This document shows, piece after piece, positions 486 to 64,000 of a DNA stretch of 64,000 nucleotides (positions are counted from its first letter, which is position 1; each line of letters starts with the position of its first letter). Position numbers and translations under genes: made by a program. Location: the NCBI GenBank assembly GCA_045535075.1, contig JAZSKX010000018.1, positions 96,001 to 160,000 on the forward strand, in the 5' to 3' direction. The notes beneath the pieces were generated by a model that saw only the letters and a list, made by a program, of their open reading frames with translations, made no database searches and was not told the origin of the DNA. The DNA comes from Candidatus Spyradenecus sp. Lineage in GTDB: Bacteria > Verrucomicrobiota > Verrucomicrobiia > Opitutales > UBA953.

Positions 486-758
486 GTGACGGACGATTTT
501 TTCCAATTGAAAGTTCGGGCAGTTCCGAACGCCAAGAAAACGCAAGTCGTCGGTTTTCTCGGGGACGCCGTAAAAATCAAGGTTCAAGCCGTTCCCGAAG
601 GCGGACGCGCAAACAAGGAATTAGAAGATTTCCTGGCAAAAGCGCTCTCGCTCCCGCGCAAAAACGTCTCCGTCCGCGTCGGAGAAACCTCTCGCGATAA
701 GCTTATTCGCATCGAAGGAACTTCCCGCGAACAGGCGCTTTCCCGCCTCGGACTCTGA
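486..758 (+). CDS. DUF167 (YggU family) protein
   Basis: VRAVPNAKK...KIKVQAVPEGGRANKEL...GETSRDK motifs. Confidence 0.85.
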   Translation: MTDDFFQLKVRAVPNAKKTQVVGFLGDAVKIKVQAVPEGGRANKELEDFLAKALSLPRKNVSVRVGETSRDKLIRIEGTSREQALSRLGL

Positions 759-831
759 ATCAAACACGACGCCGGGAAATCTCGTTTATACGCTTTCCAA
801 AGCGACGCTCAGAACTCATAATGAAAACACA

Positions 832-1758
832 ATGAATGATTTTTTTGCGGACAGAACCTTGTTTGCTTGGGCAATAAAGCTCCTGGGACTTGCCTTCGCG
901 ACCGGTTTGGTCACGGCTTACTATTCCCGCGTACGCTCAAGCGCCGTACACTGCTTGCAGCATCTGGAATCGCTCGTCGCCGCAGTCGCTTGGGCTTTGC
1001 TGAGCTGGGCGCTTTTTGTTCGCGGGAACGACTTCGGGCACTTGCCGGTTTCGAACATCTTTGAAGTTTTCCAAAGCCTCGGTTGGTGCGCGCTTTTCTT
1101 TGTCGTCTTCCTGCGCGCGGTTTGGGGGCTGCGCGTTCCCGTCGTCTTGGGAACCGGAATCGCGTGGGCCCTTTGCGCATTGGGCAATTTAAATGCAAAA
1201 AATTGGGATATTCTCAGTATTCCCGGAAGTATAATTCCGGGAGAGCCGTGGATCAGCGTTCACGCAACTTTGGCAACCGTCGGCTACGCCTGTTTTTCGG
1301 CGGCATCTACCATGTGGCTAATTTATTTGCTCCAAAATTCGGCATTGCGAAAACGTTTCTCTCATCCGTTTTTTTCCAAGCTTCCGGACTTAAATTCACT
1401 CGACCGCATCGCGGGAAGACTTTGTGCCGCCGGCTTAGTTATTCTCGGAACGGGAATGCTTGTCGGCATCGCCGCATTTGAAATGAGCGGGAAATTCGGC
1501 TCAGGATTTGTTCTTTACAAAACAATCCTTTCAGCGGCGCTTTTCGTCGGCTTTCTCGGCTTGGCGGTTTTGCGCAGGCGCGGAAAAATTTCCGCGCTAA
1601 AATGCGCGCGCTACGGCTTGGGAATTTTTGTTGCGGCGCTCATCTTTTTGGGCGGAAGCGCCTGCATTAAACATAGAGAAATCCGGGAAAACGCCGCGGC
1701 AGACTCCGTTCCCGCAAAGGAACATTTTTCCGAAAAACCGGAAGGAGGCTCGCAATGA
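832..1758 (+). CDS. CcsA/HemX-like cytochrome c assembly family membrane protein
   Basis: Multi-TM protein with 'GHLPVSNIFE', 'WISVHATLA' and 'LPDLNSLD'; overlaps the hemA start. Confidence 0.75.
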   Translation: MNDFFADRTLFAWAIKLLGLAFATGLVTAYYSRVRSSAVHCLQHLESLVAAVAWALLSWALFVRGNDFGHLPVSNIFEVFQSLGWCALFFVVFLRAVWGLRVPVVLGTGIAWALCALGNLNAKNWDILSIPGSIIPGEPWISVHATLATVGYACFSAASTMWLIYLLQNSALRKRFSHPFFSKLPDLNSLDRIAGRLCAAGLVILGTGMLVGIAAFEMSGKFGSGFVLYKTILSAALFVGFLGLAVLRRRGKISALKCARYGLGIFVAALIFLGGSACIKHREIRENAAADSVPAKEHFSEKPEGGSQ

Positions 1759-2753
1759 ATGTTGTCGCCTTCTCCTGTAACTTCCGCACGGCAACGCTCG
1801 ACGTTTTAGAAGCACTTTCGCTGTCGCGGGAACGCATCGCCGAGCTTTACCAAAAAGATTTTTTTGCGGAATTTGAAGAATGTGTTTTGATTTCGACCTG
1901 CAACCGCGTTGAAATATATGTAAAGGCCGATGAAAACCCGACAGACCGAATCGCAGAAAAGCTTGCCGGATATTCGGGAATCTCAGCCGAAACAATTTTA
2001 AAAAACGCCGCAGTTTTTTCCGGCGTTCCCGCGATAAAGCACCTCCTCGAAGTTGTCGCAGGATTAGACTCGCGCATGGTCGGCGAAACGGAAATTCTCG
2101 GACAAGTCAAACAGGCTTACGAAACCGCGTATTCGTCGGGGAAAACCGGATCAACACTGAATCGAATTTTTCAAAAAAGCTTCCAAGCCGCCAAATGGGC
2201 GCGCTCCGAAACCGGAATTTCCCAGGGACAAATCAGCATCGGGAACGTTGCCGTGGAGCTTGCCGGGCGCGTGTTCGGCGACTTGTCCCGATGTTCAATC
2301 CTGATCGTCGGCACAGGCGAGGCCGGACGCAAAACGGCACAGGCATTTGTCTCCCGAGGAGCGGAAAACGTCTTAGTCGCAAGCCGAGATTTCGAACGTG
2401 CTCACGCGCTGGCAAACGAAATCGGAGCCGGCGCAGTCGAAACGGATTCCGTCGCCGCGAGAATGATTCGCGCTGACATCGTCGTCGGATGCACAAGCAC
2501 GGAAAAGCCGCTAATCTCGAAACAGGAACTAATGCGAATTCTGAAATCGCGTTGTGAACGACCGCTTTTTCTTATCGACCTCGGAATGCCGCGCAATTTT
2601 CCCGCCGACACGGAAGCCGATTCGCTTTGGCTTTACGGGCTGGAAGATTTAGCGGCAATCGCCAACGAAAATCTCTCTGCGCGGGAACGCGAGGCAGAAC
2701 TTTGCCGCGAGGAACTGGCTCGCCGGGCACGCCGCATTTTTGATGCGCTCTAA
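1755..2753 (+). CDS. hemA: Glutamyl-tRNA reductase (short form lacking most of the C-terminal dimerisation domain)
   Basis: STCNRVE, GLDSRMVGETEILGQVK, GTGEAG and DLGMPRN motifs. Confidence 0.92.
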   Translation: MNVVAFSCNFRTATLDVLEALSLSRERIAELYQKDFFAEFEECVLISTCNRVEIYVKADENPTDRIAEKLAGYSGISAETILKNAAVFSGVPAIKHLLEVVAGLDSRMVGETEILGQVKQAYETAYSSGKTGSTLNRIFQKSFQAAKWARSETGISQGQISIGNVAVELAGRVFGDLSRCSILIVGTGEAGRKTAQAFVSRGAENVLVASRDFERAHALANEIGAGAVETDSVAARMIRADIVVGCTSTEKPLISKQELMRILKSRCERPLFLIDLGMPRNFPADTEADSLWLYGLEDLAAIANENLSAREREAELCREELARRARRIFDAL

Positions 2754-2766
2754 ACCGAAAACAAAA

Positions 2767-2786
2767 AGCGGACGTTCCCGTCCGCT
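2767..2786. terminator. Hairpin between convergent hemA and tRNA-Val
   Basis: AGCGGACG-ttcc-CGTCCGCT preceded by an A-run; contains one GTTCCCG. Confidence 0.6.
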
Positions 2787-2790
2787 CAAA

Positions 2791-2867
2791 TGGTAGTCGC
2801 GGCTGGGCTCGAACCAGTGACCCCAGCAATGTGAATGCTGTGCTCTAACCAACTGAGCTACGCGACC
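2791..2867 (-). tRNA. tRNA-Val(CAC)
   Basis: Reverse complement is GGTCGCGTAGCTCAGTTGGTTAGAGCACAGCATTCACATTGCTGGGGTCACTGGTTCGAGCCCAGCCGCGACTACCA: cloverleaf, CAC anticodon, encoded CCA. Confidence 0.95.
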
Positions 2868-2967
2868 GAAATATTGGGTAATCATGGATTTTTACCCTGC
2901 GAAACGCAAGGCATTTTCATGTATTTCTTTTTGCGGGAACTCGCACCGTTTCCGCACATCAAATAGT

Positions 2968-2996: not shown

Positions 2997-3025
2997 TAGA
3001 TAAAATCACTTTTCTATTTTTCGTT

Positions 3026-3451: not shown

Positions 3452-3470
3452 CCCACCGCAAAATCCTCTT

Positions 3471-3985: not shown

Positions 3986-5416
3986 ATGCCCGAACTTGAC
4001 GGACAACATTTTGACGCGCTCGTCATCGGAGCGGGAATGAGCGGTCTTGCCGCTACAATTCGCCTTGCGCATTTCGGGAAAAAAACACTTCTTCTTGAAC
4101 GCCACAACGCGATCGGCGGGCTTAACGGATTCTACTTTCTCGGAGGACGAAAATACGATGTCGGGCTTCATGCAATGACCAATTTCGTTCCCGCGGGAAC
4201 CAAAAACGCACCGCTCATCAAGCTCTTGCGCCAACTCCGCATCCGCTACGACGAGCTGGATCTTTGTCCGCAAAAAACTTCCGCCATCCATTCTTTCGGC
4301 AATAAAATCCGGTTTTCCAACGATTTCTCTCTGCTCGAAAGCGAAATCGAACGTTGCTTTCCGAAACAGGCGGACGGGTTTCGCAAACTGGACGCATTTC
4401 TATCCGCTTACAACGAAACCGCGCTGGATGCCGCCGATGCCTCCGCACGAGCCTGCGTCGGGGAATTCATCAACGATCCTTTGCTCGTTGACACGCTCTT
4501 CATTCCGCTGTCGTTTTACGGGAGCTCGCTTCCCGGCGACATGGCACTCCCTCAGTTTGCGATTATGTGGCGCAGCATCTTCCGCGAAGGCTTCGCGCGC
4601 CCGCATATCGGAGTCCGCCAAATCACGCGAACACTACAACGCAAATTGCGTGAATCCGGAGCCGTCGTACGCATGAAATGCGGCGTTAAAAAAATCCGAA
4701 CTGACGGGAACCGAGCCGTCGCCGTCGAGCTTGATAACGGAGCAATCGTTACCGCAGACAAAATCCTTTCTTCCGCCGGATCCTCCGAAACGTTGCGTCT
4801 CTGCGAAAACATGCCTGCCGATGCCGGGCAGGAAAATGTCGGACAACTCGCCTTCTGCGAAACAATTACCCAGCTCAATGCCGTTCCCGCAAAGGATTTT
4901 GCGTGGGATGAAACCATTATTTTTTTCAACGACGCCGAACGATTCTGTTATCAAAATCCGGATACACTTATCGACGCGCGTTCGGGCGTTATCTGCATTC
5001 CGAACAATTACGCGTGGCGCGATCCCGCGCTTGCGCCGCAAGAAGGCTGTCTGCGCGTAACCTGCCTCGCAAATTACAAGCAGTGGAAAGCGCTCGGGCA
5101 TGCAAGCTCCGCTTACACACAAGCAAAAGCCAAGGCGTTTGAAAAACTTCAATCAACCGCACGCGCTCACCTTCCCGCCGTCGAAAACGCAAAATTCCGC
5201 GAAGCCGTCTGCGCCACGGACATGTTTACGCCGCTGACAATTGAGCGCTTCACGGGAAAACTCGGCGGCGCCATTTACGGCGCGACACAAAAAACGCGCA
5301 CGGGAACGACGCCCTTCGAAAATCTTTTTCTCTGCGGAACCGACCAGGGATTTCTCGGCATTACAGGCGCAATTCTCTCCGGAATTTCCATGGCGAATCT
5401 CCACATGCTCGCCTGA
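3986..5416 (+). CDS. Phytoene dehydrogenase-like FAD-dependent oxidoreductase
   Basis: GAGMSGL dinucleotide fold; C-terminal TPLTIERFTG..GAIYG and NLFLCGTDQGFLGI. Confidence 0.8.
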   Translation: MPELDGQHFDALVIGAGMSGLAATIRLAHFGKKTLLLERHNAIGGLNGFYFLGGRKYDVGLHAMTNFVPAGTKNAPLIKLLRQLRIRYDELDLCPQKTSAIHSFGNKIRFSNDFSLLESEIERCFPKQADGFRKLDAFLSAYNETALDAADASARACVGEFINDPLLVDTLFIPLSFYGSSLPGDMALPQFAIMWRSIFREGFARPHIGVRQITRTLQRKLRESGAVVRMKCGVKKIRTDGNRAVAVELDNGAIVTADKILSSAGSSETLRLCENMPADAGQENVGQLAFCETITQLNAVPAKDFAWDETIIFFNDAERFCYQNPDTLIDARSGVICIPNNYAWRDPALAPQEGCLRVTCLANYKQWKALGHASSAYTQAKAKAFEKLQSTARAHLPAVENAKFREAVCATDMFTPLTIERFTGKLGGAIYGATQKTRTGTTPFENLFLCGTDQGFLGITGAILSGISMANLHMLA

Positions 5417-10126: not shown

Positions 10127-10163
10127 ACGTTCCCGTGAGGCTTTATCACGGGAACGTTTTTTT
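10127..10163 (+). terminator. Terminator built from an inverted GTTCCCG/CGGGAAC pair
   Basis: ACGTTCCCGTGA-ggcttta-TCACGGGAACGT followed by a T-run. Confidence 0.85.
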
Positions 10164-12594: not shown

Positions 12595-12993
12595 TTAACG
12601 TTTCGAGAATTGGAAGTGCTTGCGAGCACCCGGCTGACCGCTTTTCTTACGTTCTTTAGCACGACCGTCACGCGTGAGCAGACCGGCCTTCTTGAGAACG
12701 CTACGGAGTTCCGGATTGTATTTTTCGATCGCGCGAGCAAGACCGTGCGAAATTGCACCGGCTTGGCTGTTGCAACCGCCGCCGTTAACGCGGACACAAA
12801 TATCAAGAGACCCTTCGAGACCGGCGACTCCGAGCGGGAGCGTTGCCGCTTTCGCGAGAGCTTCCGTGAAGCAGTAGGTTTCGAGCGGTTTGTCGTTGAC
12901 GACGATTTTTCCGGAACCGGACGCGATGCGAACGCGAGCGGTCGAAGTTTTACGGCGACCAACGGCGACAAAAACAGGAACGTCTTTATTCAT
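12595..12993 (-). CDS. rpsI: 30S ribosomal protein S9
   Basis: GRRKTSTARV, LLTRDGR.KERKK and FQFSKR. Confidence 0.97.
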   Translation of the reverse strand: MNKDVPVFVAVGRRKTSTARVRIASGSGKIVVNDKPLETYCFTEALAKAATLPLGVAGLEGSLDICVRVNGGGCNSQAGAISHGLARAIEKYNPELRSVLKKAGLLTRDGRAKERKKSGQPGARKHFQFSKR

Positions 12994-13011
12994 TAGTAAA
13001 TGTCTCCTAAA

Positions 13012-13449
13012 TTATTTCGCGTCGATGATTTCAACCGGATTCTGCGCGGCATGCGGGTGTTCCGAACCTGCATAAATTTTGAGCTTTTTGAGCATCGCGC
13101 TGGCAAGACGGTTTTTCGGAAGCATTCCTTTAACCGCATGCATGATAAGGAATTCCGGACGACGTGCACGCATATCGGCGACACTACGACGATAGGCGGT
13201 TCCGACCCATCCCGTGTAGAACATGTAAGTTTTGTTTTCTTCCTTCGCGCCGGAGAGTGCGACCTTGTCGGCATTGATGACGACAACGAAATCGCCGGTA
13301 TCAACGTGCGGCGTGTAGGTCGGTTTGTGGCGACCGCGGAGGATCGCCGCAATTTGCACGGAGAGGCGACCGAGCGTTTTGCCCGTCGCGTCAACGACAT
13401 ACCATTTCTTTTCGGTATCGTTCGGAGTCTTTGCTAAAGTTGTTTTCAT
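13012..13449 (-). CDS. rplM: 50S ribosomal protein L13
   Basis: [25 protein letters not shown] and AVKGMLPKN. Confidence 0.97.
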
Positions 13450-14460: not shown

Positions 14461-14493
14461 AAAAGCGTTCCCGCCGAAACTTGCGGGAACGCT
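14461..14493 (-). terminator. Terminator after tsf built from an inverted motif pair
   Basis: AAAAGCGTTCCCGC-cgaaactt-GCGGGAACGCT. Confidence 0.85.
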
Positions 14494-14510: not shown

Positions 14511-15101
14511 TTACGCTCCGATTTGGAAACGCGAGAAGCGGGAGATGATGATGTTTTCGCCCGTTTTCGTAATCTGTTCCGTGAGCAATTCGTTAATGGT
14601 TTTCTTGTCATCCTTAACGAATGCCTGATCGAGGAGGCAGACTTCCGAGTAGAATTTTTCGAGCTTGCCGGCAACGATCTTTTCGATTGCCTGAGCCGGT
14701 TTGCCTTCGCATTGCGCCTTAACGATTTCGGCTTCTTTTTCAACTTCTTCAGCCGGAACTTCGTCACGCTTGATAAAACGCGGAGCCGCCGCAGCAATGT
14801 GCATCGCAATATCGCGAGCAAAGCTTTGGAAAAGCTCGTTTTTAGCTACGAAGTCGGATTCGCAGTTGATTTCGACGAGAACGCCGATTTTGCCGCCCAT
14901 GTGAATATAGGAAGCGACCGTTCCTTGAGAAGCGGCACGTCCCGCTTTTTTATCGCGCGTTGCAACACCTTTTTTGCGGAGAATTTCCGCAGCAGCGTCC
15001 ATGTCGCCGTTGGTTTCGACGAGCGCTTTTTTGCAATCCATGAGCCCGGCGCCCGTACGGGTGCGGAGTTCGTTAACGGTTTTTGCGTCAATAGTTGCCA
15101 T
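14511..15101 (-). CDS. tsf: Elongation factor Ts (short form)
   Basis: LRTRTGAGLMDCKKAL and EINCESDFVA. Confidence 0.96.
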   Translation of the reverse strand: MATIDAKTVNELRTRTGAGLMDCKKALVETNGDMDAAAEILRKKGVATRDKKAGRAASQGTVASYIHMGGKIGVLVEINCESDFVAKNELFQSFARDIAMHIAAAAPRFIKRDEVPAEEVEKEAEIVKAQCEGKPAQAIEKIVAGKLEKFYSEVCLLDQAFVKDDKKTINELLTEQITKTGENIIISRFSRFQIGA

Positions 15102-41800: not shown

Positions 41801-43989
41801 GTTTTAATGAGAGAACCTTCTCCGGAGATAATGCCGGAAAGAGAAACCTCTGAGCCGGTGTTCGCAGAAACAACCTTATTTTTGTCGTCAAATTTAAGTT
41901 TTCCGGTGTCAACAGTCGTCGCGCCTCCCAAGGTCAGATTCCTTGAAGAGCTCCATGCGTCGGCGAGAGAACCGATGGTCGCACTTCCCTTGAGTTCGAC
42001 AGAAAGAATATTGCTGTCGGAAATGCCTCCCGCTCCGACATTAATACGCCCGCCTTCGTGAACGTGAAGACGAACGACTCCTGTGTTGTTTCCCGAATCG
42101 GCAACCACTACGCCGGTATTGAAATTCGCTTCTCCGTAAACATTAATATCGCCGTTCCCGTCTTTATTGCTGATTCCGGCGTTCAACAAAGAAAGCGTCC
42201 CCCAAACGTTTACTGTTTGCGTTGCGCCCCAATGCCCTAATTGGAAAGAACCTTCGTTCCCGCCGGTGGAATTGGAACTTCCGGTAATAGTCAACGAACC
42301 GTCTTCACGAATATTCAACGTTCCCGCAGAGCTACCGCGCGACGTGCCGACATACTGCGTTCCTACGGCATCCCCCCAAATCTTTACCGTTCCGCCGGTT
42401 TGGAAAAGGCTGCCGAAAGTCGTCGAATCACCGCCGAAGGTTGTCGTATTTCCGACATAAACGGAAGTTGTTTCATCTCCGACGAAATTGCCTTCAAACG
42501 TTGTCGTTCCCTGTTCAAACGAAAACGACGCATCTTTAAGCAAGGTAAAATCATTTTCAAAGGTGAGATTCCCGCCACCGCGCTGTTTATTCACACCTTC
42601 TCCGTTGTAGTTAGTCATCGCTCCCTGCACTTCGAACAGTTGCGAGTACGAAACCGTTTCTCCGGTCCAAATATAAGTGCTCGCGAGAATAACTTTTTTA
42701 GTTCCTCCCAATTCGGAGTCTCTGGGAAGATTTGCATTCCCGGAGACCTGTAAGGTTCCTTCAAACCCGCTTCCCAACTTAATTCCGGCAGAATGGTTTG
42801 AAGGTTGCGCATTGAAGATGATTTTCCCCGTTCCCGTAATTGAGGAAACATCCGTTTTCGCCGAAGTCAAATTACCCAAGTTTATCGCGCCGTCTCCGTC
42901 AACCGACACCGAGCCGGTAAATTTTGCAAGCGACGACAAATCGGCTTTCAAGACACCTCCGGTTACGGAAACATTCCCGCTCGCCGAAACATTCCCGCTG
43001 ACGTTCCCGCCATTCGTAAACGTTAAATCGTTGCCGATGTTGAGTGTCGCCGAGCCTCCCGCCCGAATAACTCCCGGTCCGATAAGTGTAATTTTATTGC
43101 CGGACAGCGTTAGTGCGCCGCTCCCCGCGACTGTAATCGCATCCGTCGTAATCGCAGTTCCCGTAACATTAACCGCAGTGTCTGCCGACACATCAAACGC
43201 CGCATACGTTCCCGCTTCCGCAGTAGAATTCGTCCACGGAGTAGAGCCAATAGCCGTATCCGTCCAATTTGTCGCAGTCCCGCTAAGAGAAACGTTCGTT
43301 GCCGTTCCCGTATAGGTGTTGACGACCTGAATCCCGGAAAGCGTCGCACGATTCGATGTCGAACGCTCGTTTGTGAGAGAAACAAACCCGGAGACACCGG
43401 AAACCTTCAGGGCATTCGTCCCCAAAACTAAATTGTCGGAATAATCTCGACTTCCCCAAGCTCCGCTTCCTTCAACGGAACCGTTGGTTGCATCACCCTT
43501 ATAAAATGTCCCGTTTACGGAAACCGCACCGTATTTTCCGCCGTCCCCGGACAAATAAACGTAAACATCACAAACCAGGAATGTTGAATTAATATCAACG
43601 TTCCACGAACCAAGCCCCCAATTCGCCAAGTCATAGTACGAACCTTGAAGCGAACGGATTACCGTTCCGTTCGACCCGTATGGTCCCCAAGTTGCGAAGT
43701 CGCTTCGTGCGGTAACCGAAGCACCTTCAATCAGCGTCCCGTCGTAATTTTTAAGAGCGACTGTTTGTTGAGCGTTCCCGTTGACATTCGCCCAACCCGC
43801 TGCGCCAACCGCAGTCTGCACCCCGCCGTTATCGTAGGTCGCAAGCCCCGCCGTTCCCGTCATCGAATCCGTAATCGCATTTCCGGAATTCCCAAAATTG
43901 ATACTGATGATTTCTCCTGCGGCATGCGCAGTTGCCGTCATAGCGGCGGCGGCAAAAAGGGTCGTTAAGAAAAACTTGGGATTTTTCAT
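29845..43989 (-). CDS. Giant autotransporter adhesin (~4714 aa) with PATR repeats and a C-terminal beta-barrel
   Basis: Signal peptide MKNPKFFLTTLFAAAAMTATAHA from ATG 43989; many K-x-G-x-GTL-x-L...YxGGT repeats; C-terminal barrel ending GFRFTY. Confidence 0.92.
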   Translation of the reverse strand: MKNPKFFLTTLFAAAAMTATAHAAGEIISINFGNSGNAITDSMTGTAGLATYDNGGVQTAVGAAGWANVNGNAQQTVALKNYDGTLIEGASVTARSDFATWGPYGSNGTVIRSLQGSYYDLANWGLGSWNVDINSTFLVCDVYVYLSGDGGKYGAVSVNGTFYKGDATNGSVEGSGAWGSRDYSDNLVLGTNALKVSGVSGFVSLTNERSTSNRATLSGIQVVNTYTGTATNVSLSGTATNWTDTAIGSTPWTNSTAEAGTYAAFDVSADTAVNVTGTAITTDAITVAGSGALTLSGNKITLIGPGVIRAGGSATLNIGNDLTFTNGGNVSGNVSASGNVSVTGGVLKADLSSLAKFTGSVSVDGDGAINLGNLTSAKTDVSSITGTGKIIFNAQPSNHSAGIKLGSGFEGTLQVSGNANLPRDSELGGTKKVILASTYIWTGETVSYSQLFEVQGAMTNYNGEGVNKQRGGGNLTFENDFTLLKDASFSFEQGTTTFEGNFVGDETTSVYVGNTTTFGGDSTTFGSLFQTGGTVKIWGDAVGTQYVGTSRGSSAGTLNIREDGSLTITGSSNSTGGNEGSFQLGHWGATQTVNVWGTLSLLNAGISNKDGNGDINVYGEANFNTGVVVADSGNNTGVVRLHVHEGGRINVGAGGISDSNILSVELKGSATIGSLADAWSSSRNLTLGGATTVDTGKLKFDDKNKVVSANTGSEVSLSGIISGEGSLIKTGAGTLTLSGNNTYTGGTEISGGTLVVGNSNALGTGGVVLSAGTLDAQALDSLTLPSLSASSGSTLSLGMLSTDTAALTTTGTLTLDKGMIFDLSPALGGAEKITYILAEGATLNGITATDVNTMNRNNLLFGGLAATERVGAVFVLDGNVLKLELAKPVFTDLTWIGGNGATWKYQGDTLWSSQIATETGATPKFENGDTVIFNTAGASVAVEGAVQPGGIIVNENVTFTAVADSGASLALAAGTALTVADGKTATIDASLGTTGLLKKAGTGTLELSGAAASLFSSAQITEGRVNLLSAESLKSAIMAEISEGATLGFSVSADQSVALPSMFSGSGTLEKIGAGTISLSGFGFDGTLQVSEGSLAVSGGTNTVGTLKISGGTANFSGGETTATNGITVENAELTLAAGGQSSVLRGTVTVNDGGLVRLTAGDATGWGGGATAITSLIVNEGGELRIETDATPSGGQNQTFTGGITLKGGKVTGTAGVSGENSKIDLYDSNQGITTLASDTTALISATIGLRKNGTFNVAKGTTADGVDLEVSGWLTNYGQIYTQQPDVQTALTKTGAGTMKLSGDNRYWIKGGTVAEGKLIAASATALGTGALAVESGATLEFSAGSGNFANALSGSGEIVVNSTGTITLSGENTLDGNISVSAGKLVAGSASALGTGTVSVASGATLGRGDASVSAGDLTLASGATLAFGSVFTGTAYSVAGTADLSSDIKFDFAANFSSGTYELISAGTLNLDTSALSESNLSFGGETSSRASAVFSVEDNKLVLDLVKKVYTDLIWQDSADAKWENRGATLWASQAAGGTTTFENGDSVTFGSANANVTVAGNIVVGSITATESATLSTGTAETSALTIDGKVTVDEGKTLTFDKTIATSGALAKEGAGTFVVAADATGVFDSVNIAEGAFGLSVADGTVTFAGTISGSGSFEKLGAGTLELSSAQNYSGGTLVSDGTLKITNKNALGSGLITVGNGAVLDLAVNMDGSTNKYILAGGMLSASVETGSGNAQIASGAGTIVLTADSSVGGTANFGMISSSYAANTLELGGNTLTKTGSNTFFLASTTITSGTIEVEEGVIQVVNTLKADGDVTFNIADSANLGFNGKNFEILENANVTIAGTFNSPATITVNKGAVLDLTQASRKENGGGSGSLVIAGGTVKMAKMNWGAGSNFGANFNSDRITLRDGGVLDVTAAQASGSESAGLTVNEGTYRYSGTGTSYINAGGGAINISKALTLDVVDKDAVLNIAKTISAIGSVKLTGAGTVLLSGNNNYSGGTILENGTLAVGSASAVGSGTLTLAGGNLTKADGVSDAIKLTGNVSVKASGSVKNLSFGGVEDGEGNVSGGVWYFTESVDTSFSGVALTDVSFSKTTIDVSGVDFDDDNLTMTLFTNYAGTAEDFIVSGGTGAGTISVDASKNVIFTAGENYLTLVWNPDATEPGNDKIWSASQFNGKDYSAAPTLRKYKFMATAADATETATIKGEVNAKRLNVLGNYTFTGLADDAGTAAKLVFAASSDDAGTLSGMGEVSVVKDATIAFEKTVATSGSIVKKGEGKLVVAADASEVLQTVQIQEGAFGLSVSEGETATYAGTVYDYGDGIFEKLGAGTLVLSGEKEWFEGTLLVSEGTLKLGKSSALGAATVSVVIGENGTLDLNGQTRDKNYGNYILAGGALINTGDEIGDGSKQLAGGMSLTADSSVGGTSNFGMVSSGWGANTLDLAGHTLTKTGSNTFFLCNTTVTPGTIKIDDGTVRFVNAVTAGGDLTFNTASSANLDFNGKDLKIVADANVAILGTFNNPGMITVGADATLDLTQASRKEDSGGNGTLVVNGGTVKIANMAWGAGSNFGANFNSDRIRLNANSVLEVTAAQSPETSARVGFTVNGGESTYRYSGAGTSYVVENETNQRIQLSGGTLAWDVVNADASLEVSKVIEGSGSVKLDSTGTVMLSGENTYSGGTTIARGTLKVGSDSALGTGTLTIAKDGVLETGAVESTAVNNVIAGTGTVNAKGDTTLGGVNTFSGKYAVTDKATLTVAGKLGSDSVVAEIAGGSALKYAPTANTTASGIVKLEKDTSLINASADDVITTLATTVSGDGNIRQVAGTMNIASASLGEFNGTFVLEGGTLAGLNLDTSTASVSASVSGGTMKNWTLDKATGTVAVTAADSVALEGTLALKAGTLSLESLHETAYFTGTASVEISDGFIFNFQNLSLQDTDDPNTKTASVQVFDSGLTLIGWDKVGFEDIRISGKEIDAHYNVDIGNSGDVTITLTSQTIIWNAGSTGTWDNQKMNWELSDGAGIAFADYDTVRFENNAEVEISGNLIPAEIVVADNVDLTLKGFGSVLGGTTTVGNGASFQLSVVAGAVPTFKNKVSGTGTFVLNNTIDASFSATLNGANTLSGSVGFEKLGAGTLAADASQNAYSGAVSLKEGKILVSETNALGTGTLSLSGGTLEVAAAKETSVVVNNVITGSTPDNAALTLSGEGTVTLTQANTYTGKTAVSGNAIAQNAKAFGESSVEVSGSVTLGGADAGFENDFSGNGRLSLAKSATLSGDVSELTGTLTVDSGATLKANSASNFAGTLELSGSATFEKVGSEKFTISEIIKGDSKSAITVSDGTLAVGGANAQSFAGTLTVNASKAFEKIGANTLTLSGALAGTGSISVKEGALSFGGLKDQSFAGTVSLEAGTTLEKVRSNTLTLSGKLSGAGSLKVAGGILELSTADDYALEATVSGAGTLKKSDIGKLTLATGTNVANIDLAGGTLGNVEIGNNAVALLKVSATGTTLDALTANGGTLDVSAAAVTLAGATELSGGTIVLGGKDAASLIVTGTTTITKSDALVFNLSDFTADDYPTHTSPNTLGETATVVYKVFDVNTGATLDGWTALDKGNFTIGSGAALSDRASLELGTNGSLSLTNEIYSLTWNASEGTWATGDGKSWKNNDSSKATDTAYMNSDRVTFASDATVSLGSNVAPTSLSVNDGADLTIAASDSYKITGAGTVTVGKDASLILNSAHDYTGATTLADGATVRLNLSANNASQFASDLVLAENATGTLLVDTQKFGATGFADLDTVFTGKVGDGVWSFEKLGEGTLTVASKMSAFTSEDFVNIAAGTLKLMEVDAIGSAKTTIAEGAVLEVASSKDATFMLAFSGLGDFRKSGGGTLTLAHSNAMFGGNALVAEGTLKLADAGALGDSRKSTTLEVIRNAQLDLAFGGSFGKELKGEGTVNYALADRLILTADSDEFVGTFSLKADNAVATARQATSFGNGTIAFEGENGNLMFELTPASGQTVADVFSGSFEGAGTISVETGLGIAMTLSGSSADFEGCFDLKSGSTLVAEKGDAVGNEKASLILGKDAEIRVGSAENSSITALISGEGAFTKVGEGRLEISNPSNDFTGMVTVKSGVLRAVSLASLGKSAQVLLDSEDAVLELKTVAGKTETLNKVIRGSGSLSAIGGGVLNWQSAEKRFGGILSVSDKTTLNTSDFFKVESGSVVLNNGGVWNANGGLSVEGNSVISLFAAQDMALAYGMQSRASQTLDAGTQLRVGGFVAAANKSGSVVLEDISITPTDGGNGALICFDIESVKDAETPRISLTNDASVSLDNVAVEVTLDESIRSAWEVPEIEFVYRDGSAADISGDVESVTVIMADGTEVKYVYDSRVGHLSLSPVSPDMNLAYAAMVAMPTEVFNQDVQSLHRRMEQRRFETLSNKDEWQFFAQAQSMSVENGSDRSDSAVFDFSTYGALVGGDVRLSESTVFGMALAYDRGTADIHDNQGEISMDSYRATIYAGTVFNDYYFAEGGAHFGFASYEVERCGDYGNNKGDTDGWSAGLFANAGGVIPTSVENLYLTPYVGLSYLHTAVEKIEETGTRSMTTDSFNADSLRARIGIGSSYSFAIGEMPTRFGLDLAYSHEFLDDEVDADVGATGVAYSRRITEKALPEDAVSVGASFDFTLSENTGLFLNYTVDLGMNSDISHRGNVGFRFTY

Positions 43990-44367
43990 AAGTAGAATTG
44001 AGTAACTTGGGTGATTGCAAAGAGTTTCTGAGCGCGGAATACACCGCATATTGGCGAATAGGATGCAAGCTTCTATGAAATTTCGCAATAAAATTTCGTT
44101 CCCGCGCGGGCAAACGGGAGAGTTCTCCGTCGCCGAAAGGTCTTTGGAATTAACTTCGATTAAACCGCTTTTGCTCGCTAACGCTCCGCCGAAAATCAAA
44201 ACACATGAATTCTCCAAAATTCCGCAAGCAAGTCGTTAGGCGCGTAGAAATTGAACGAATCGGAGTTAAAAAATCTTAAGAACTCAACGATTCGTCCCAA
44301 TCGAAGCTCTCGTTCGAGATTTTAATTTATTCTCCGGGCATTTTTTTGATATGCTCGGGTGTTTATT

Positions 44368-45556: not shown

Positions 45557-45595
45557 AAAAAAGCGTTCCCGCGAAATGAATCACGGGAACGCTTT
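45557..45595. terminator. Bidirectional terminator built from an inverted motif pair
   Basis: AAAGCGTTCCCGCGA-aatgaa-TCACGGGAACGCTTT. Confidence 0.85.
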
Positions 45596-47475: not shown

Positions 47476-47515
47476 AAAAAAGCGTTCCCGCCGGCTTCGA
47501 CGGGAACGCTTTTTT
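47476..47515. terminator. Bidirectional terminator built from an inverted motif pair
   Basis: AAAAAAGCGTTCCCG-ccggcttcga-CGGGAACGCTTTTTT. Confidence 0.88.
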
Positions 47516-57379: not shown

Positions 57380-57422
57380 AAAAAAAGGCGTTCCCGTGAT
57401 TATTTCGCGGGAACGCCTTTTT
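57380..57422. terminator. Bidirectional terminator built from an inverted motif pair
   Basis: AAAAAGGCGTTCCCGTGA-ttatt-TCGCGGGAACGCCTTTTT. Confidence 0.88.
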
Positions 57423-57714: not shown

Positions 57715-57750
57715 AAAAAAACGTTCCCGCGACTTTCGCCACGGGAACGC
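57715..57750 (-). terminator. Terminator built from an inverted motif pair
   Basis: AAAAAAACGTTCCCGCG-actttcgc-CACGGGAACG. Confidence 0.85.
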
Positions 57751-60580: not shown

Positions 60581-63376
60581 AACTCTCTCCTCCGGCGTTC
60601 CCGCGAAAACGAGTTTTCCGCCGCCCTGCCCGCCTTCGGGACCGAGTTCCAAAAGCCAATCGCACGCGCCGAGCACGTCGCCCTGATGCTCGACGACAAC
60701 GACCGAATTTCCCGCAGCCGTCAGCTTTTTCAAAATCTTAATCAGCAACGCCGTATCTTCGCGATGAAGCCCGGTGGTCGGCTCATCCAACAAAAGTAAA
60801 CTCGTCGTTCCCGTAGCTTCGTCTTCTTTGCATGCGGAGATTTCGCCGAGATGACGCGTCAGCTTCAGCCGTTGCGACTCGCCGCCGGAAAGCGTGTTAA
60901 GCGGTTGTCCGAGCGTCAGATAGCCCAAGCCGATTTCTTCGAGCAAGGCAAGCGGCGCCACGATTTTTTTATTTCCTTCAAAAAATGCAATCGCCTCACT
61001 AATCGTCAGCGCAAGAATCTCCGTCGCGTTTTTTCCTCTGTAACGGAACTGCAGAATTTCCTCGCGGAAACGGCGACCTTCGCAAACGGGACACGGAATA
61101 AACACATCGGACAAAAATTGCATTTCGACGGTTTCCCAGCCGGTTCCGTTGCAATGCGGGCAACGTCCGTCGCCGGAATTATAGGAAAAACTTCCCGCCG
61201 TAATGCCCGCCGCCTGCGCTTCCGGCGTTCCCGCGAGCAGCTTTCGGATTTCCGTCCACACGCCGCAATAAAGCGCGGGATTCGAGCGCGGCGTTTTTGA
61301 AAGCGGCGCCTGATCGACAAGCACGACTTCCCTCAACGGCAAATCGCTTTTGAATGTACACGGCGGGAGCTCAAAATCATCTTCTTCGGGAACGGCATCG
61401 CGATCGCTCGAAAACTGTGCGAGCACGTTGTTGAGCAAAGTCGATTTTCCGGAACCGGAAACGCCGCAAATGCCAACCAGTTTTCCTAGCGGAATTTCAC
61501 AGGCAAAATCGCGGAGATTGTGCGCCGTTACGTGCGCAAGCCGCAGCACGGGAACGCGCTTTTTCCGCTTCTTTGCCGTTCCCGCGGCTCCGCCTTTTAA
61601 AATTGAGGCGAGCTCGCGTTCCCGCGCGCCGGAAAGCCATGCGCCCGTAATCGAATCTACGCATTTCAAAATGCCGCCCGGAGTTCCCGCGTAAACGAGA
61701 TTTCCGCCGCCGGCGCCGGGACGCGGACCGATCTCAATCAGATAATCCGCCGCACGCATAACGGATTCGTCGTGTTCGACAACGACAACCGTGTTCCCGC
61801 GCGCAACGAGTTTTTTCAAAATCGAAATCATTTTCGCGAGGTCGCGCGGATGCAAACCGACGCTCGGTTCATCCAAGATAAAAAGCGTATTGGAAAGCGC
61901 CGCGCCAAGGCACGCCGTCAGGTTCACGCGTTGAACCTCGCCGCCGGAAAGCGTGCGCGATTGGCGGTCGAGCGTCAAAAATCCCAAGCCGACTTCCCGC
62001 AAATAACCCAAGCGGCTCCTCGTTTCCGCAAGCGCGACATCTTCGGATTTCTCGGCTTTCGGGAGCAATTCCAGTAATTCGTCAACGCTCTTGCCGAAAA
62101 GCTCCGGCAAACTGTTCCCGCGAAATTTCCACGCGAGCGACTCCGGCTGAAAGCGCGTTCCGCCGCAATCCGGGCATTTCACATACGCGCGGAAACGGGA
62201 AAGAAAAACGCGCACGTGCATTTTGTAAGACGTGCTTTCGAGCCATTCGAAAAATCGCTTCACGCCGTACCATTTCCCGTTCCAATTTTCTTCGCTCCAA
62301 TCGGCATCGCCGTCCAAAATGTAATTTTTTTGTACTGACGAAAGTTTTTTCCACGGAATATTAAGCGGGATTTTCTTTCGCTTTGCGGCGCGCAACAAAT
62401 CGCGTTGCGACTCTCCGTAAACTGCGCCTGAAAACGGAGCGAAAACGCCTTCGTCCAAGGTCTTGTTTTCGTCGGGAATGATCTTTTTCCAATCAAGCGT
62501 AATCACGCGCCCGAATCCGCGGCAACGCGGGCAAGCGCCAATCGGCGAATTAAAAGAAAACAGCGCGGGACTCGCCGGTCGAAAGCTTTGTCGCGTCGCG
62601 GGGGAAATCAGTTTTTCGGAGAAAACGCCAAGTTCGTCGAACGTTCCCGTATCGTTTTTTCCGAAAATAAAAAGCCGGCCGCCGCCAAGCCGCATCGCCG
62701 TTCCCGCGGCTTCGATAAAGCGATTGCGATTGGGATTTTCAGAACGTAATCGATCGGCAATTACAAAAATTCTGTCGCTCGCGGCAAGCGTTCCCGCGTC
62801 CGCATCTTCGATTTCCCAAAGCGTTCCCGCGACAATGATTTTCGTAAAGCCTTGCTCCGCATAACGCTCAAGAATCGGCTTCCAACTTATTTTCTTCGGC
62901 CGCTCCAGAGCGAACGCGATACAAATCGCACGTTCGGGGAAACATTCCCGCACGTGCTTCCAAACGCTCGCAGGCGAATAGGCGACAAGCGGCGTTCCCG
63001 TCGCCGGATCAATCAATTCCGCCGCATGCGCAAACCAATTTTTCATCCAATCGCAAAGCTCGGTCATCGTTCCGACGGTCGAGCGGGAAGTCTTCACCGT
63101 GTTGCCCTGCTTGACGGCAATGGACGGGCGGATGTTTTCAATGGAATCGACGGCGGCTTCCGGAAGAAGCTCCAAAAATTGCCGCGTGTACGGCGAAAAC
63201 GTTTCGACGTAGCGGCGTTGCCCTTCCGCGTGAAGCGTTTCAAAAACAAGAGACGATTTTCCCGCGCCCGAAAGCCCCGTGACGACAACAAGTTTGCCGA
63301 TAGGAATCTCGAGGTCGAAGCCTTTCAGATTGTTTTGGCGAACGCCGTGAAGTCGAATGGAAGACAGGCAGGACAT
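60578..63376 (-). CDS. uvrA: UvrA-family excinuclease ATPase, apparently C-terminally truncated
   Basis: Two ABC modules ([26 protein letters not shown]), zinc fingers; ends abruptly at FAGTPEERV*. Confidence 0.8.
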
Positions 63377-63439
63377 TTTATCCGCAACGTTTCGCAAATT
63401 TCTCAAATTCGTGTCATGCGCGAAATTCGAGCTTCCTTT

Positions 63440-64000
63440 TTATTTTCTTTTGCGACGCGTTCCCGCGAAACCGAGCGCGAAAATTCCCGCAAGTAAACCG
63501 AAAACCGACGGTTCCGGAATAATCGCGTAAATTTGCGAGGCGTACTCGGGAAGAAAAGTAAAACTAGTCACACAAATCGAATTAGGCGTTTCAACATAAC
63601 CCACAGTAGGATTATTCTCGGAGTTCGCGCCAACCGTAATCGCAACGCCGACGACTTCCCAATTCTCACCGTTCTTCACAAAAACTCCGCTTCCGGAATC
63701 ATACATTCCGCATTGAATGCTTTTTTCTGCTTCGGAAGAAAACACCTCTACAAACGACAATGTCTTTCGGCCCCCTTCTTCGACTTCCTGTATGCCGTCC
63801 GCGCAGAATTCTCCCCACTGTTTTACACGGGAACCGGACGAAATCCCGCCGCCGAGCGACAAACTGCAACCGGTTCCGACGCAATAAAGCGGCGTGTTCG
63901 TATAAAGATCTCCGGTATAAATTTCGATATTACCGAGTGCATCCAGATAATCTGCGGCATCGCCCGTTGCCGAGACGGAAAACAACTTCAAGTCGACGCT
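63440..64000 (-). CDS. PEP-CTERM protein with a trypsin-like serine protease domain (5' end outside the window)
   Basis: Frame is open to the window edge (SVDLKLF, Asp-motif-like); YDSGSGVF...WEVVGV (Ser motif); IPEPSVFGLLAG..RRKRK tail. Confidence 0.7.
   Translation of the reverse strand, partial: SVDLKLFSVSATGDAADYLDALGNIEIYTGDLYTNTPLYCVGTGCSLSLGGGISSGSRVKQWGEFCADGIQEVEEGGRKTLSFVEVFSSEAEKSIQCGMYDSGSGVFVKNGENWEVVGVAITVGANSENNPTVGYVETPNSICVTSFTFLPEYASQIYAIIPEPSVFGLLAGIFALGFAGTRRKRK

What the first reader, a model, noticed from the sequence alone, without database searches (positions are those of the whole stretch)
591..63834. Window-wide iterated motif GTTCCCG/CGGGAAC behaves like an undescribed DNA-uptake sequence
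Seen: by hand I count at least 34 exact copies in bases 1-10000 (18 GTTCCCG, 16 CGGGAAC; e.g. 591, 1023, 1135, 1708, 1827, 2025, 4187/4194, 7379, 7463, 7476). Chance expectation for a 7-mer on two strands is about 1-2 per 10 kb. The density continues through the whole window, usually as CGTTCCCGC/GCGGGAACG. The motif is non-palindromic, not strand-polarised, and occurs inside genes in several frames (giving VPA, AFP, RSR, AGT, RER, GNA peptides). I found none in rpsI, rplM or tsf. Established: these are the properties of Neisseria DUS (GCCGTCTGAA) and Pasteurellaceae USS (AAGTGCGGT), which accumulate through biased uptake in natural transformation. Chi/KOPS sites are strand-skewed and cyanobacterial HIP1 is palindromic. 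Inference: this lineage may have an independent, sequence-specific self-DNA uptake system; I know of none described in Verrucomicrobiota.
Basis: partly seen in the sequence, partly recalled or inferred. Interest (0 to 1): 0.92.

Follow-up and report, generated by a model that had tools for sequence, protein, structure and literature searches.

The report
Genus-wide iterated DNA word CGTTCCCG
A genus of animal-gut Verrucomicrobiota writes the eight-letter DNA word CGTTCCCG about 2.6 times per kilobase on both strands and preserves each copy, much like the self-recognition words that some bacteria use for DNA uptake, while its closest sister species have let the word decay.

Summary
GTTCCCG/CGGGAAC occurs 237 times in the window against 15 expected. 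The true core is the 8-mer CGTTCCCG: 5159 copies in the 1.95 Mb genome, 75 times the base-composition expectation.

It lies on both strands, in all six frames, and is denser between genes. It survives an amino-acid- and codon-preserving null 8.7-fold. It shows no real replichore polarity. It forms the stems of 146 terminator-like hairpins.

It is confined to one genus among 401 Opitutales genomes, at GC contents from 47 to 66%.

Between word-rich species, 50-78% of copies are kept in place against 13-45% of all 8-mers. In the sister species G013 only 21.1% are kept, exactly the 21.3% background. Maintenance was therefore lost there.

ComEC, DprA, ComM, PilT, a secretin and pilins are present, but equally so in word-less and decaying relatives. 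ComEA was not found. No reader protein, methyltransferase or lost gene was identified.

A DNA-uptake-sequence-like drive is the best reading (about 0.4) and is unproven. This scan has noted similar words in other lineages.

The parts
591..63834 (.). Array of 237 copies of GTTCCCG/CGGGAAC, of which 202 are the 8-mer core CGTTCCCG/CGGGAACG, spread over the whole window
   Evidence: 237 against 15 expected; 8-mer count; 168 copies outside the giant ORF; 86 on + and 82 on - outside the giant ORF
29845..44217 (-). Giant 4790-aa ORF with passenger-associated transport repeats. It carries 69 copies, all as CGGGAAC on the coding strand, read as AGT (31), TGT (25) or xGN tripeptides
   Evidence: ORF; PF12951 PATR, E 2.5e-28; frames and peptides
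10129..10155 (.). Inverted pair GTTCCCG-N13-CGGGAAC followed by a T run: terminator-like hairpin
14467..14490 (.). Inverted pair flanked by AAAAAAGC and GCTCTTCTT, 21 nt beyond the end of tsf (14511-15101, - strand): terminator-like hairpin
45565..45590 (.). Inverted pair between the convergent genes tgt (ends 45519) and ORF 45616-46335(-): bidirectional terminator-like hairpin
47484..47507 (.). Inverted pair AAAAAAGC-GTTCCCG-N10-CGGGAAC-GCTTTTTT between hisG (ends 47403) and ORF 47537-48877(-)
57390..57414 (.). Inverted pair AAAAAAGGC-GTTCCCG-N11-CGGGAAC-GCCTTTTT, 24 nt after the aminotransferase gene (ends 57366)
57723..57748 (.). Inverted pair downstream of the PEP-CTERM ORF 57783-58475(-)
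4187..4200 (.). Two abutting copies forming the 14-bp palindrome GTTCCCGCGGGAAC inside the oxidoreductase ORF 3986-5416(+)
12595..13449 (-). rpsI (12595-12993) and rplM (13012-13449): highly conserved genes without any copy
   Evidence: PF00380, PF00572; no site between 12483 and 13711
14511..15101 (-). tsf, without any copy
   Evidence: PF00889; no site between 14490 and 15160

Best explanation
CGTTCCCG (weakly extended to g-CGTTCCCG-Y-r) is a genus-specific self-recognition word. It works like the DNA uptake sequences of Neisseriaceae and Pasteurellaceae.

Proposed mechanism (inferred):
- A surface or periplasmic part of the type IV pilus / ComEC uptake route prefers DNA that carries the word.
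- Fragments with the word are therefore taken up and recombined more often.
- Each new copy thus gains a small transmission advantage, and each loss is purged.
- Over time the word fills every position where it costs little: permissive codon frames, spacers and the stems of intrinsic terminators.

Shown: the abundance, the distribution, site-by-site maintenance in word-rich species, and neutral decay in the sister lineage.
For: (1) Abundance and sharpness. There are 5159 copies, 75 times expectation. Each of the 24 one-mismatch variants has only 26-857 copies. Flanks beyond +-2 carry no information, so the word arises in place and is not carried by a mobile element.

(2) Both strands, all six frames, and denser between genes: 4.26 against 2.50 per kb on my crude ORF map.

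(3) Not a coding artefact. CDS hold 4495 copies. A within-gene synonymous shuffle gives 518, genome codon usage 427, and shuffled codon order 161 (20 replicates each).

(4) 146 convergent pairs CGTTCCCG-N6-16-CGGGAACG against 14 divergent ones. 117 of the 146 are intergenic, mostly 15-30 nt after gene ends, flanked by A runs and T runs, with unrelated loops. DUS/USS likewise sit in terminators (abstract of 10.1101/2025.10.24.684340).

(5) Lineage specificity.
- All 18 other species of the genus are enriched for the 11-mer. 14 have 740-2146 copies and 4 have 51-128, against reversed-word controls of 0-8.
- All 385 non-genus genomes of the order that were sampled have at most 25 copies.
- The same word tops the 8-mer list in relatives with 47-66% GC.

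(6) Stringent conservation. Against word-rich relatives, 28/36, 27/42, 26/46, 34/51 and 12/24 copies are intact at the aligned site. All 8-mers score 44.5, 34.8, 17.6, 13.6 and 13.4%, and one-mismatch variants 17-46%. This parallels Neisseria DUS (PMC2397512, abstract and section 8).

(7) Depletion in accessory DNA. Genes absent from G013 carry 1.53 copies per kb against 2.2-2.9 elsewhere. The prophage-like island C16:180-220 kb holds 18 and 13 copies in its two 20-kb windows.

(8) A natural loss of drive.
- The sister species G013 keeps 830/3932 = 21.1% of own copies, equal to the 21.3% for all 8-mers.
- 830/1046 = 79% of its remaining copies are shared with the window's genome.
- Copies shared between the window's genome and more distant rich species are intact in G013 in only 4/26, 9/33 and 1/12 cases.

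(9) Uptake toolkit present. ComEC and DprA, ComM and PilT above the curated cut-offs, two PilB-like ATPases and a secretin, and four N-methyl pilin genes.
Against: - The toolkit does not discriminate. ComEC was found in 41/41, DprA in 40/41, secretin in 40/41 and T2SSE ATPases in 41/41 genomes of the order, word or no word.
- The decaying species G013 keeps ComEC, DprA, ComM, PilB/PilT, the secretin and all four pilins full-length, at 63-97% identity.
- The 345-aa pilin and RecC diverge in step with phylogeny, with no acceleration in the word-poor species.
- No small ComEA: the only strong HHH_3 hits in the genus lie in Tex-like ORFs (about 770-900 aa where the ORF is complete).
- Only about 6% of copies (292 of 5159) sit in inverted pairs and 13% lie between genes, against about half of DUS/USS in terminators. 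The density of 2.6 per kb is higher than the figures I recall for DUS/USS, about 1 per kb.
- No transformation is reported for Verrucomicrobiota in the library searched.
Such words therefore do not need an uptake system.
- A screen for genes lost in G013 gave no competence gene.
Confidence: 0.4

Rival explanations
1. An intracellular reader maintains the word, as proposed for cyanobacterial HIP1. It could be a chromosome-structuring or nucleoid protein, or a sequence-biased repair or gene-conversion activity. It binds or restores CGTTCCCG wherever it can be accommodated. DNA uptake plays no part.
For: - Hyper-abundance together with conservation inside and between ORFs is what was reported for HIP1, where the authors argue for selection and a nucleoid role (PMC5861425, abstract).
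- HIP words are also lost in some lineages (PMC4390886, abstract), as here.
- The uptake machinery is intact in the decaying species, so the loss may lie elsewhere.
- A prophage of the genus carries about 1.5 copies per kb inside terminase, portal and tail genes (L280). This fits a process that acts on any resident DNA.
- Similar words noted by this scan in giant viruses need an intracellular reader.
Against: - The word is not palindromic.
- No resident methyltransferase fits. The two C5 methyltransferases (C12:45252, C8:21551) and the D12 enzymes (C16:218681-220103) lie in word-poor islands absent from G013.
- No Vsr and no N6_N4 enzyme were found. The three HsdM belong to type I systems, whose sites are bipartite, which I recall rather than tested.
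- Spacing is close to random (CV 1.10). I did not test 10-90 kb periodicity.
- No candidate protein was found among the 52 genes scanned of the 286 that are missing or weak in G013.
Confidence: 0.3
2. The word is a Chi-like signal for RecBCD. It marks DNA as self and switches the nuclease from degradation to recombination.
For: - It is an asymmetric 8-mer, like E. coli Chi (recalled).
- RecC is present and uninterrupted in 19/19 species of the genus. A RecB-like PD-(D/E)XK protein is present.
- The word is depleted in recently acquired DNA.
Against: - Orientation relative to GC skew is only 54.7% (2498 of 4564). Gene strand bias can largely account for that, since the amino-acid-preserving null already puts 62% of copies antisense. 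Chi and KOPS are strongly skewed (recalled).
- 75-fold enrichment and 2.6 copies per kb are far above known Chi (recalled).
- Chi does not explain inverted pairs in terminators.
- RecC shows no extra divergence in the word-poor sister species: 60-62% identity there against 50-51% and 35-47% in more distant word-rich species. The UvrA-like control gives the same order.
Confidence: 0.1
3. The word is the recognition site of a restriction-modification or orphan methylation system. CGGGAAC has the form of MmeI-family sites, which are asymmetric and end in AC.
For: - The genome encodes a complete MmeI-family enzyme: C2:15779-18766, 995 aa, all five MmeI domains at E 1e-26 to 6e-89.
- The resemblance of the word to published MmeI-family sites is recalled, not tested.
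Against: - The enzyme is sporadic. It was found in 8 of 18 other species of the genus, including the word-poor G001 (with a stop codon) and G014.
- It was not found in the word-rich G003, G006-G010, G012 and G016.
- Restriction sites are usually avoided, not enriched (established knowledge).
- It sits in a defence island with a Drt4-like reverse transcriptase.
Confidence: 0.04
4. The word is a by-product of base composition, codon or peptide usage, or a dispersed mobile repeat.
For: - Inside the giant PATR gene, the copies are in frame and encode AGT or TGT.
- The amino-acid-preserving null is itself raised, at 518 against 161 for shuffled codon order.
Against: - Enrichment is 8.7-fold over the amino-acid- and codon-preserving null.
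- Density is higher between genes.
- The same word is enriched at 47-66% GC.
- Flanks carry no information.
- Background-level decay in the sister species, with proteins at a median 82% identity, shows the proteins do not need the word.
Confidence: 0.01

Closest known systems
DNA uptake sequences: DUS of Neisseriaceae (with dialects) and USS of Pasteurellaceae, together DUES
   Same: - A short non-palindromic word in thousands of copies on both strands.
- Shared by related species.
- Far more conserved than its surroundings.
[quoted passage not shown]
- Inverted pairs serve as terminators.
- Reading frames inside genes are used unevenly.

Sources: PMC3630211 abstract; PMC2397512 abstract and section 8; 10.1101/2025.10.24.684340 abstract. 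Compared.
   Different: - A different phylum, Verrucomicrobiota (Opitutales).
- An unrelated word, 8 bp with weak flanks.
- Higher density, 2.6 per kb.
- Only about 6% of copies lie in inverted pairs, against about half of DUES in terminators.
- No dialects: one word in all 19 species.
- No ComP-type receptor identified, and ComEA not found.
- Uptake bias is untested.
HIP1 (GCGATCGC) and alternate highly iterated palindromes of cyanobacteria
   Same: - An 8-mer that is 15- to 300-fold over-represented.
- Conserved within and between ORFs.
- Lineage-specific, and lost in some lineages.
- Reader unknown.

Sources: PMC5861425 and PMC4390886 abstracts.
   Different: - HIPs are palindromes and co-occur with cognate orphan methyltransferases.
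- Here the word is asymmetric. No resident methyltransferase was found in the six families searched.
- Use in terminator stems is not a HIP1 trait that I know of.
Chi / KOPS-type architecture-imparting words
   Same: Asymmetric 8-mer. RecBCD is present.
   Different: No meaningful replichore polarity. Enrichment and density are one to two orders higher than I recall for Chi.
Other lineage-specific iterated words noted earlier by this scan (Pontibacter AGGTATAG, TGTATCAC word, Kiritimatiellota 15-bp palindrome, giant-virus GAGACAA)
   Same: The same phenomenology: hyper-abundant, both strands, all frames, kept at silent positions, reader unknown (AI notes that I did not check).
   Different: A different word and lineage. 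Here there is also a sister lineage in which conservation has fallen exactly to background, and a whole-order survey.

Membership tests
DNA uptake sequences (DUS/USS) | Short word, hyper-abundant, non-palindromic, about equal on both strands | tested here: met
   5159 copies, 75 times expectation. 428 forward and 377 reverse for the 11-mer. 54.7% on the presumed leading strand.
DNA uptake sequences (DUS/USS) | Specific to a clade of related species | tested here: met
   19/19 species of the genus are enriched. 385 other genomes of the order have at most 25 copies of the 11-mer.
DNA uptake sequences (DUS/USS) | Copies conserved at orthologous sites well above background | tested here: met
   50-78% against 13-45% for all 8-mers in five word-rich comparisons, with small samples of 24-51 sites each.
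DNA uptake sequences (DUS/USS) | Enriched in the core genome, scarce in recently acquired DNA | tested here: met
   1.53 per kb in genes absent from G013 against 2.2-2.9 per kb in shared genes. The prophage-like island is word-poor.
DNA uptake sequences (DUS/USS) | Inverted pairs acting as transcription terminators | tested here: met
   146 convergent pairs against 14 divergent, 117 of them intergenic, with A/T runs. Termination itself is inferred from form. Only about 6% of all copies are in such pairs.
DNA uptake sequences (DUS/USS) | Natural competence machinery (type IV pilus with PilT, secretin, ComEA, ComEC, DprA, ComM) | tested here: inconclusive
   All found except ComEA. The same genes occur in word-less genera and in decaying species.
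DNA uptake sequences (DUS/USS) | A receptor that binds the word (ComP-type minor pilin in Neisseria) | not tested
   Four pilin-like genes match only the N-methyl motif in Pfam. No comparison with ComP and no binding prediction was made.
DNA uptake sequences (DUS/USS) | Word-bearing DNA is taken up or transforms better than word-free DNA | not testable with these tools
   Needs a culture or enrichment and an uptake assay.
HIP1-type iterated palindromes | Palindromic word | tested here: not met
   The reverse complement of CGTTCCCG is CGGGAACG (sequence).
HIP1-type iterated palindromes | Cognate orphan methyltransferase co-distributed with the word | tested here: not met
   PF00145, PF02086 and MmeI enzymes occur only on islands or sporadically. 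PF01555 gave no hit and PF07669 only weak hits inside the MmeI enzyme and two HsdM genes. PF02384 hits are type I HsdM. No Vsr was found. Other methyltransferase families were not searched.
Chi-like RecBCD signals | Strong orientation bias with the direction of replication | tested here: not met
   2498 of 4564 copies (54.7%) in 20-kb windows classed by GC skew.
Dispersed mobile repeats (REP/MITE) | Conserved sequence beyond the core; copies are homologous units | tested here: not met
   Information content is 0.03 bits or less beyond positions -1 to +10. Hairpin loops are unrelated.
Restriction-modification target (MmeI family) | The enzyme is present wherever the word is maintained | tested here: not met
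   Found in 8 of 18 other species, with no relation to word density.

The most novel reading that the evidence does not exclude
This is the first DNA uptake sequence outside the Proteobacteria. A genus of uncultured animal-gut Opitutales (Verrucomicrobiota) is naturally transformable and filters incoming DNA by the word CGTTCCCG. The word-poor sister lineage (G001, G002, G013), and probably G014, are natural knock-outs of the filter. Their comparison with word-rich species can reveal a new kind of sequence-specific DNA receptor.
Probability: 0.38. Interest if true: 0.9.

Novelty: new variant of a known kind. Interest (0 to 1): 0.8.

Why it matters

This genus offers an unusually clean system:
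- one sharp 8-mer at 2.6 copies per kb;
- 19 sequenced species spanning 47-66% GC;
- a sister lineage in which site conservation has fallen exactly to background while all obvious uptake genes remain.

That contrast makes the question 'what reads such words?' approachable by comparative genomics and by a simple uptake or pull-down experiment.

If it is not, the genus gives a tractable case of the wider class of lineage-specific genome words that this scan keeps meeting.

Practically, the word is a strong lineage marker. It could be used to check metagenomic bins and to flag foreign DNA in these genomes.

Tried and rejected
(1) Global MAFFT alignment of the tgt flank with seven relatives failed, at 46-60% identity. 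BLAST showed the genomes are heavily rearranged, so I used HSP-based site comparison instead.

(2) The naive identity^8 expectation was replaced by the empirical all-8-mer baseline.

(3) Search for dialects. The word-poor species G001, G002 and G013 still have the same word as their top or second 8-mer, at 0.58-0.71 per kb. In G014 (0.33 per kb) it is no longer among the ten top 8-mers. No replacement word emerged in any of the four. CGTCCCCG is raised in G013 (410 against 68) but remains far below the core.

(4) Gene-loss screen.
- I fetched the whole of G013 except the last 1 kb of contig C23. I compared 1582 crude ORFs by tblastn: 194 had no hit and 92 a weak hit.
- 151 lay in word-rich surroundings.
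- I fetched 20 stretches holding 73 ORFs and scanned 52 of them with Pfam and 12 with NCBIfam. The remaining candidates, mostly under 150 aa, were not scanned.
- Result: defence systems, sugar and transport genes, and unknowns, but no competence, repair or DNA-binding candidate.

(5) The MmeI-family enzyme was rejected as the driver on its distribution.

(6) Relative-rate checks showed no acceleration in word-poor species. I checked RecC and one pilin against a UvrA-like control.

(7) Methyltransferase, Vsr and RecBCD searches were made in the window's genome.

(8) Viral scan for hairpin pairs. 80 loci were read out of at least 120 matching stretches.
- 77 lie below 1 per kb.
- L310 and L327 carry an unrelated GGGAAC tandem.
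- Only L280 belongs to this genus.

(9) The very word-dense contig start C5:1-4500 holds no repeat unit other than the word itself.

What remains open is whether neighbouring genera have different words. The 71 loci from outside the genus (1.6-21 kb each) show none of comparable strength.

(11) Earlier notes on this genome: none.

Full report
**Observation**

One search finds 237 exact copies of GTTCCCG/CGGGAAC in the 64-kb window. 100 dinucleotide-preserving shuffles gave 14.96 +- 3.76 (maximum 24).

One gene distorts the picture. The 4790-aa ORF at 29845-44217(-) carries passenger-associated transport repeats. It holds 69 copies, all on one strand, read as AGT, TGT or xGN. Outside it there are 168 copies, 86 on + and 82 on -, or 3.39 per kb. 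rpsI, rplM and tsf hold none.

**The word**

The window is contig C5:96001-160000 of a 1.949-Mb, 18-contig, 52% GC assembly.

| Word | Copies (both strands) | Times zero-order expectation |
|---|---|---|
| CGTTCCCG (core 8-mer) | 5159 | 75 |
| GTTCCCG (7-mer) | 6528 | 24.6 |
| GCGTTCCCGC (10-mer) | 1614 | 348 |
| GCGTTCCCGCG (11-mer) | 805 | 669 |

- The logo is g-CGTTCCCG-Y-r: G 47% at -1, C 63% or T 25% at +8. Beyond that there is no information, so the copies are not homologous units of a mobile repeat.
- Each of the 24 one-mismatch variants has 26-857 copies. Positions 4, 6, 7 and 8 of the word tolerate least.
- The ratio of core to all one-mismatch variants is 0.80. With the mutation-selection formula quoted in PMC2397512 (section 8) this gives 2Nes of about 3. 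That is the order reported there for Neisseria DUS (about 4). The transfer is a rough inference.

**Distribution**

I made a crude longest-ORF gene map of 1582 ORFs. It covers 92% of the genome, which probably overstates coding.

- On this map the word occurs in all six frames: 1460, 1178, 758, 423, 359 and 307 copies.
- It is denser between ORFs, at 4.26 against 2.50 per kb.
- CDS hold 4495 copies. Shuffling synonymous codons within each gene leaves 518. Redrawing codons from genome usage leaves 427. Shuffling codon order leaves 161 (20 replicates each). I did not run a dicodon-preserving null, because it would preserve most of an 8-mer by construction.
- The sense:antisense ratio of 41:59 matches the null of 38:62, so transcription adds no strand effect.
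- In 20-kb windows classed by GC skew, CGGGAACG lies on the presumed leading strand in 2498 of 4564 cases, or 54.7%. That is not Chi- or KOPS-like.
- Spacing is near-random: mean 373, median 262, CV 1.10, longest gap 5374 bp.

**Terminators**

- 146 pairs CGTTCCCG-N6-16-CGGGAACG occur, against 14 in the divergent order.
- 117 of the 146 are intergenic on my map, mostly 15-30 nt beyond a gene end.
- They are flanked by AAAAAG and CTTTTT and have unrelated loops. This is the form of bidirectional intrinsic terminators.
- Six such pairs lie in the window.
- They hold only about 6% of all copies.

**Who has it**

The closest named records are animal-gut Opitutales MAGs.

- Of the 80 loci fetched there, 6 carry the word at 2.9-4.9 per kb although their GC ranges from 47 to 66%. 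Three carry 0.37-0.47 per kb. The other 71 carry 0.32 per kb or less.
- For the 11-mer, all 18 other species of the genus are enriched. 14 have 740-2146 copies and 4 (G001, G002, G013, G014) have 51-128. Reversed-word controls give 0-8.
- In a sample of 401 genomes of the order, covering 133 genera, the 16 genus members have 119-2146 copies. The other 385 have at most 25, similar to their controls.
- The word-poor species have no replacement word. In G001, G002 and G013 CGTTCCCG is still the top or second 8-mer, at 0.58-0.71 per kb. In G014 (0.33 per kb) it no longer ranks among the ten top 8-mers.

**Maintenance and its loss**

I aligned relatives to the genome by BLAST HSPs and asked how often an 8-mer of the window's genome is intact in the relative.

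| Relative | Word copies intact | All 8-mers intact | One-mismatch variants intact |
|---|---|---|---|
| L001 (word-rich) | 28/36 | 44.5% | 46% |
| L002 (word-rich) | 27/42 | 34.8% | 39% |
| L005 (word-rich) | 26/46 | 17.6% | 23% |
| L008 (word-rich) | 34/51 | 13.6% | 17% |
| L010 (word-rich) | 12/24 | 13.4% | 28% |
| G013 (word-poor; whole genome, 1.53 Mb aligned at 79.6% identity) | 830/3932 = 21.1% | 21.3% | 20.1% |

- Conversely, 830 of G013's 1046 aligned copies (79%) are intact in the window's genome.
- Copies shared by the window's genome and the more distant rich relatives L005, L008 and L010 are intact in G013 in only 4/26, 9/33 and 1/12 cases.
- G013 keeps hairpin pairs better (71 against 146) than copies overall (1385 against 5159). 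This is expected if stems stay under structural selection.

Polarity:
- A TGT tree places the word-poor loci L003 and L004 in a supported clade (98/97) with the window, L001 and L002. The rich L005, L008 and L010 fall outside it (one gene).
- The word-poor trio G001, G002 and G013 is nearest to the window's genome for three proteins.

| Protein | G001/G002/G013 | G018 and G004 (word-rich) | Remaining species |
|---|---|---|---|
| UvrA-like control | 86-87% | 75% | 69-71% |
| RecC | 60-62% | 50-51% | 35-47% |
| 345-aa pilin | 83-85% | 73% (G018; not found in G004) | 50-59% |

The low density of the trio is therefore derived: maintenance stopped in that lineage. G014 lies outside this clade. By identity to the window's genome it ranks next after G018 for the pilin (59%) and among the most distant for RecC (its main stretch 35%), so its own position is unresolved. 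It may be a second loss.

**Accessory DNA**

- Genes without a G013 counterpart carry 1.53 copies per kb.
- Shared genes carry 2.66-2.87 per kb. The most conserved, at 90% identity or more, carry 2.22 per kb.
- A prophage-like island (C16:~182-221 kb) is word-poor.
- The prophage part of L280, from another member of the genus, has about 1.5 copies per kb inside terminase, portal and tail genes.

**Machinery**

| Gene or family | Found in |
|---|---|
| ComEC | 41/41 genomes of the order |
| DprA | 40/41 |
| Secretin | 40/41 |
| T2SSE ATPases | 41/41 |
| ComM (C1:20335-21855) | window's genome, above curated cut-off |
| PilT (C5:27870-28910) | window's genome, above curated cut-off |
| Four N-methyl pilin genes (C1:259100-262397) | window's genome |

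- The only strong HHH_3 hits lie in Tex-like ORFs of about 800 aa, so no small ComEA was found.
- None of this separates word-bearing from word-less lineages.
- G013 keeps all of these genes full-length.

- 194 of 1582 ORFs have no G013 hit and 92 have a weak one. Most lie in islands.
- Of these, 52 were scanned with Pfam and 12 with NCBIfam.
- The one suggestive hit is a complete MmeI-family restriction-modification enzyme. CGGGAAC resembles published MmeI-type sites (recalled). The enzyme is sporadic: it occurs in 8 of 18 other species, including two word-poor ones, and is missing from eight word-rich ones. I rejected it.
- C5 and D12 methyltransferases sit on word-poor islands. No Vsr or N6_N4 enzyme was found. 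The three HsdM are type I.
- RecC is intact in 19/19 species and shows no rate change.

**Reading**

The data require a process that recognises this exact 8-mer on duplex DNA. It favours keeping the word at thousands of sites, in any orientation. It arose once in the genus and can be switched off without visible loss of genes.

Biased DNA uptake followed by recombination does all this in the two known cases, and every sequence-level hallmark of those cases is met. I therefore rank it first, at about 0.4.

I cannot separate it from an intracellular reader of the HIP1 kind, at about 0.3:
- the uptake genes are uninformative;
- ComEA is missing;
- earlier notes of this scan report similar words even in giant viruses (unchecked).

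Chi-like, restriction-linked and artefact readings are weak or refuted.

**Literature**

- A full-text search for the word in either orientation returned 2,766 papers. The 20 listed were unrelated studies in which the word evidently occurs only incidentally.
- 'DNA uptake sequence' together with 'Verrucomicrobia' gave three unrelated papers.
- 'Spyradosoma' gave five taxonomic or survey papers.
- 'natural transformation', 'Verrucomicrobia', 'competence' and 'comEC' together gave one soil population study.
- I read abstracts, plus the two named sections of PMC2397512, only. I opened no supplements.

Noticed in passing
window 29845-44217 (-): A giant 4790-aa ORF with passenger-associated transport repeats (PF12951). 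It is autotransporter-like and otherwise has no Pfam match. It carries 69 in-frame copies of the word as AGT/TGT/xGN.
   Followed up: partly
own genome C2:15779-23600 (locus L244:2780-10601): A defence island: a complete MmeI-family restriction-modification enzyme (995 aa), a Drt4-like antiviral reverse transcriptase (937 aa), and an HTH + SocA/Panacea antitoxin-like gene. It lies beside recC.
   Followed up: partly
own genome C9:61992-65035 (locus L253): A Hachiman-like pair, HamA plus a DEAD/ResIII helicase. It is absent from G013.
   Followed up: no
own genome C16:~182000-221000: A prophage-like island of about 40 ORFs, absent from G013. It is word-poor (13-18 copies per 20 kb) and holds two D12-class methyltransferase genes.
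   Followed up: partly
L310:6272-8881 and L327:1200-3644 (viral contigs, GC 33%): An unrelated repeated element built on the tandem CGGGAACGGGAAC, repeated upstream of genes in low-GC phage contigs. It looks like a regulatory repeat, not the Opitutales word.
   Followed up: no
L280:4600-14565: The prophage part of a host-prophage junction from this genus (terminase, portal, baseplate, tail). It carries about 1.5 copies of the word per kb inside structural genes.
   Followed up: partly
L004 and L006 (record titles): Two records whose tgt is 90-96% identical to the window's are titled as Lentisphaerota ('Spyradenecus') and Bacteroidaceae. L006 is also word-rich. These are probably labelling or binning errors. 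The word could serve as a bin-quality marker.
   Followed up: no
G014 stretches L099-L103 and locus L009: The words ACCACCAA/CCACCAAC and poly-C are strongly over-represented (42-77 copies in 64 kb). This suggests a tandem repeat or repeat-rich gene in that lineage.
   Followed up: no
own genome, all contigs: A/T homopolymer-type hexamers (GAAAAA, TTTTTT, ATTTTT) are 8 times over the zero-order expectation in a 52% GC genome. Part of this reflects the A and T runs that flank the hairpins.
   Followed up: no
own genome C5:1-4500 (locus L247): The contig start has the highest word density (about 5 per kb). Its ORFs have no Pfam or NCBIfam match and no G013 counterpart. There is no repeat unit beyond the word itself.
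   Followed up: partly
genus-wide: A second secretin (about 780-880 aa) occurs in seven species (G001, G002, G004, G012, G013, G014, G018) but not in the window's genome. Six of them (all but G012) also have a fifth T2SSE ATPase hit. This is unrelated to word density.
   Followed up: no
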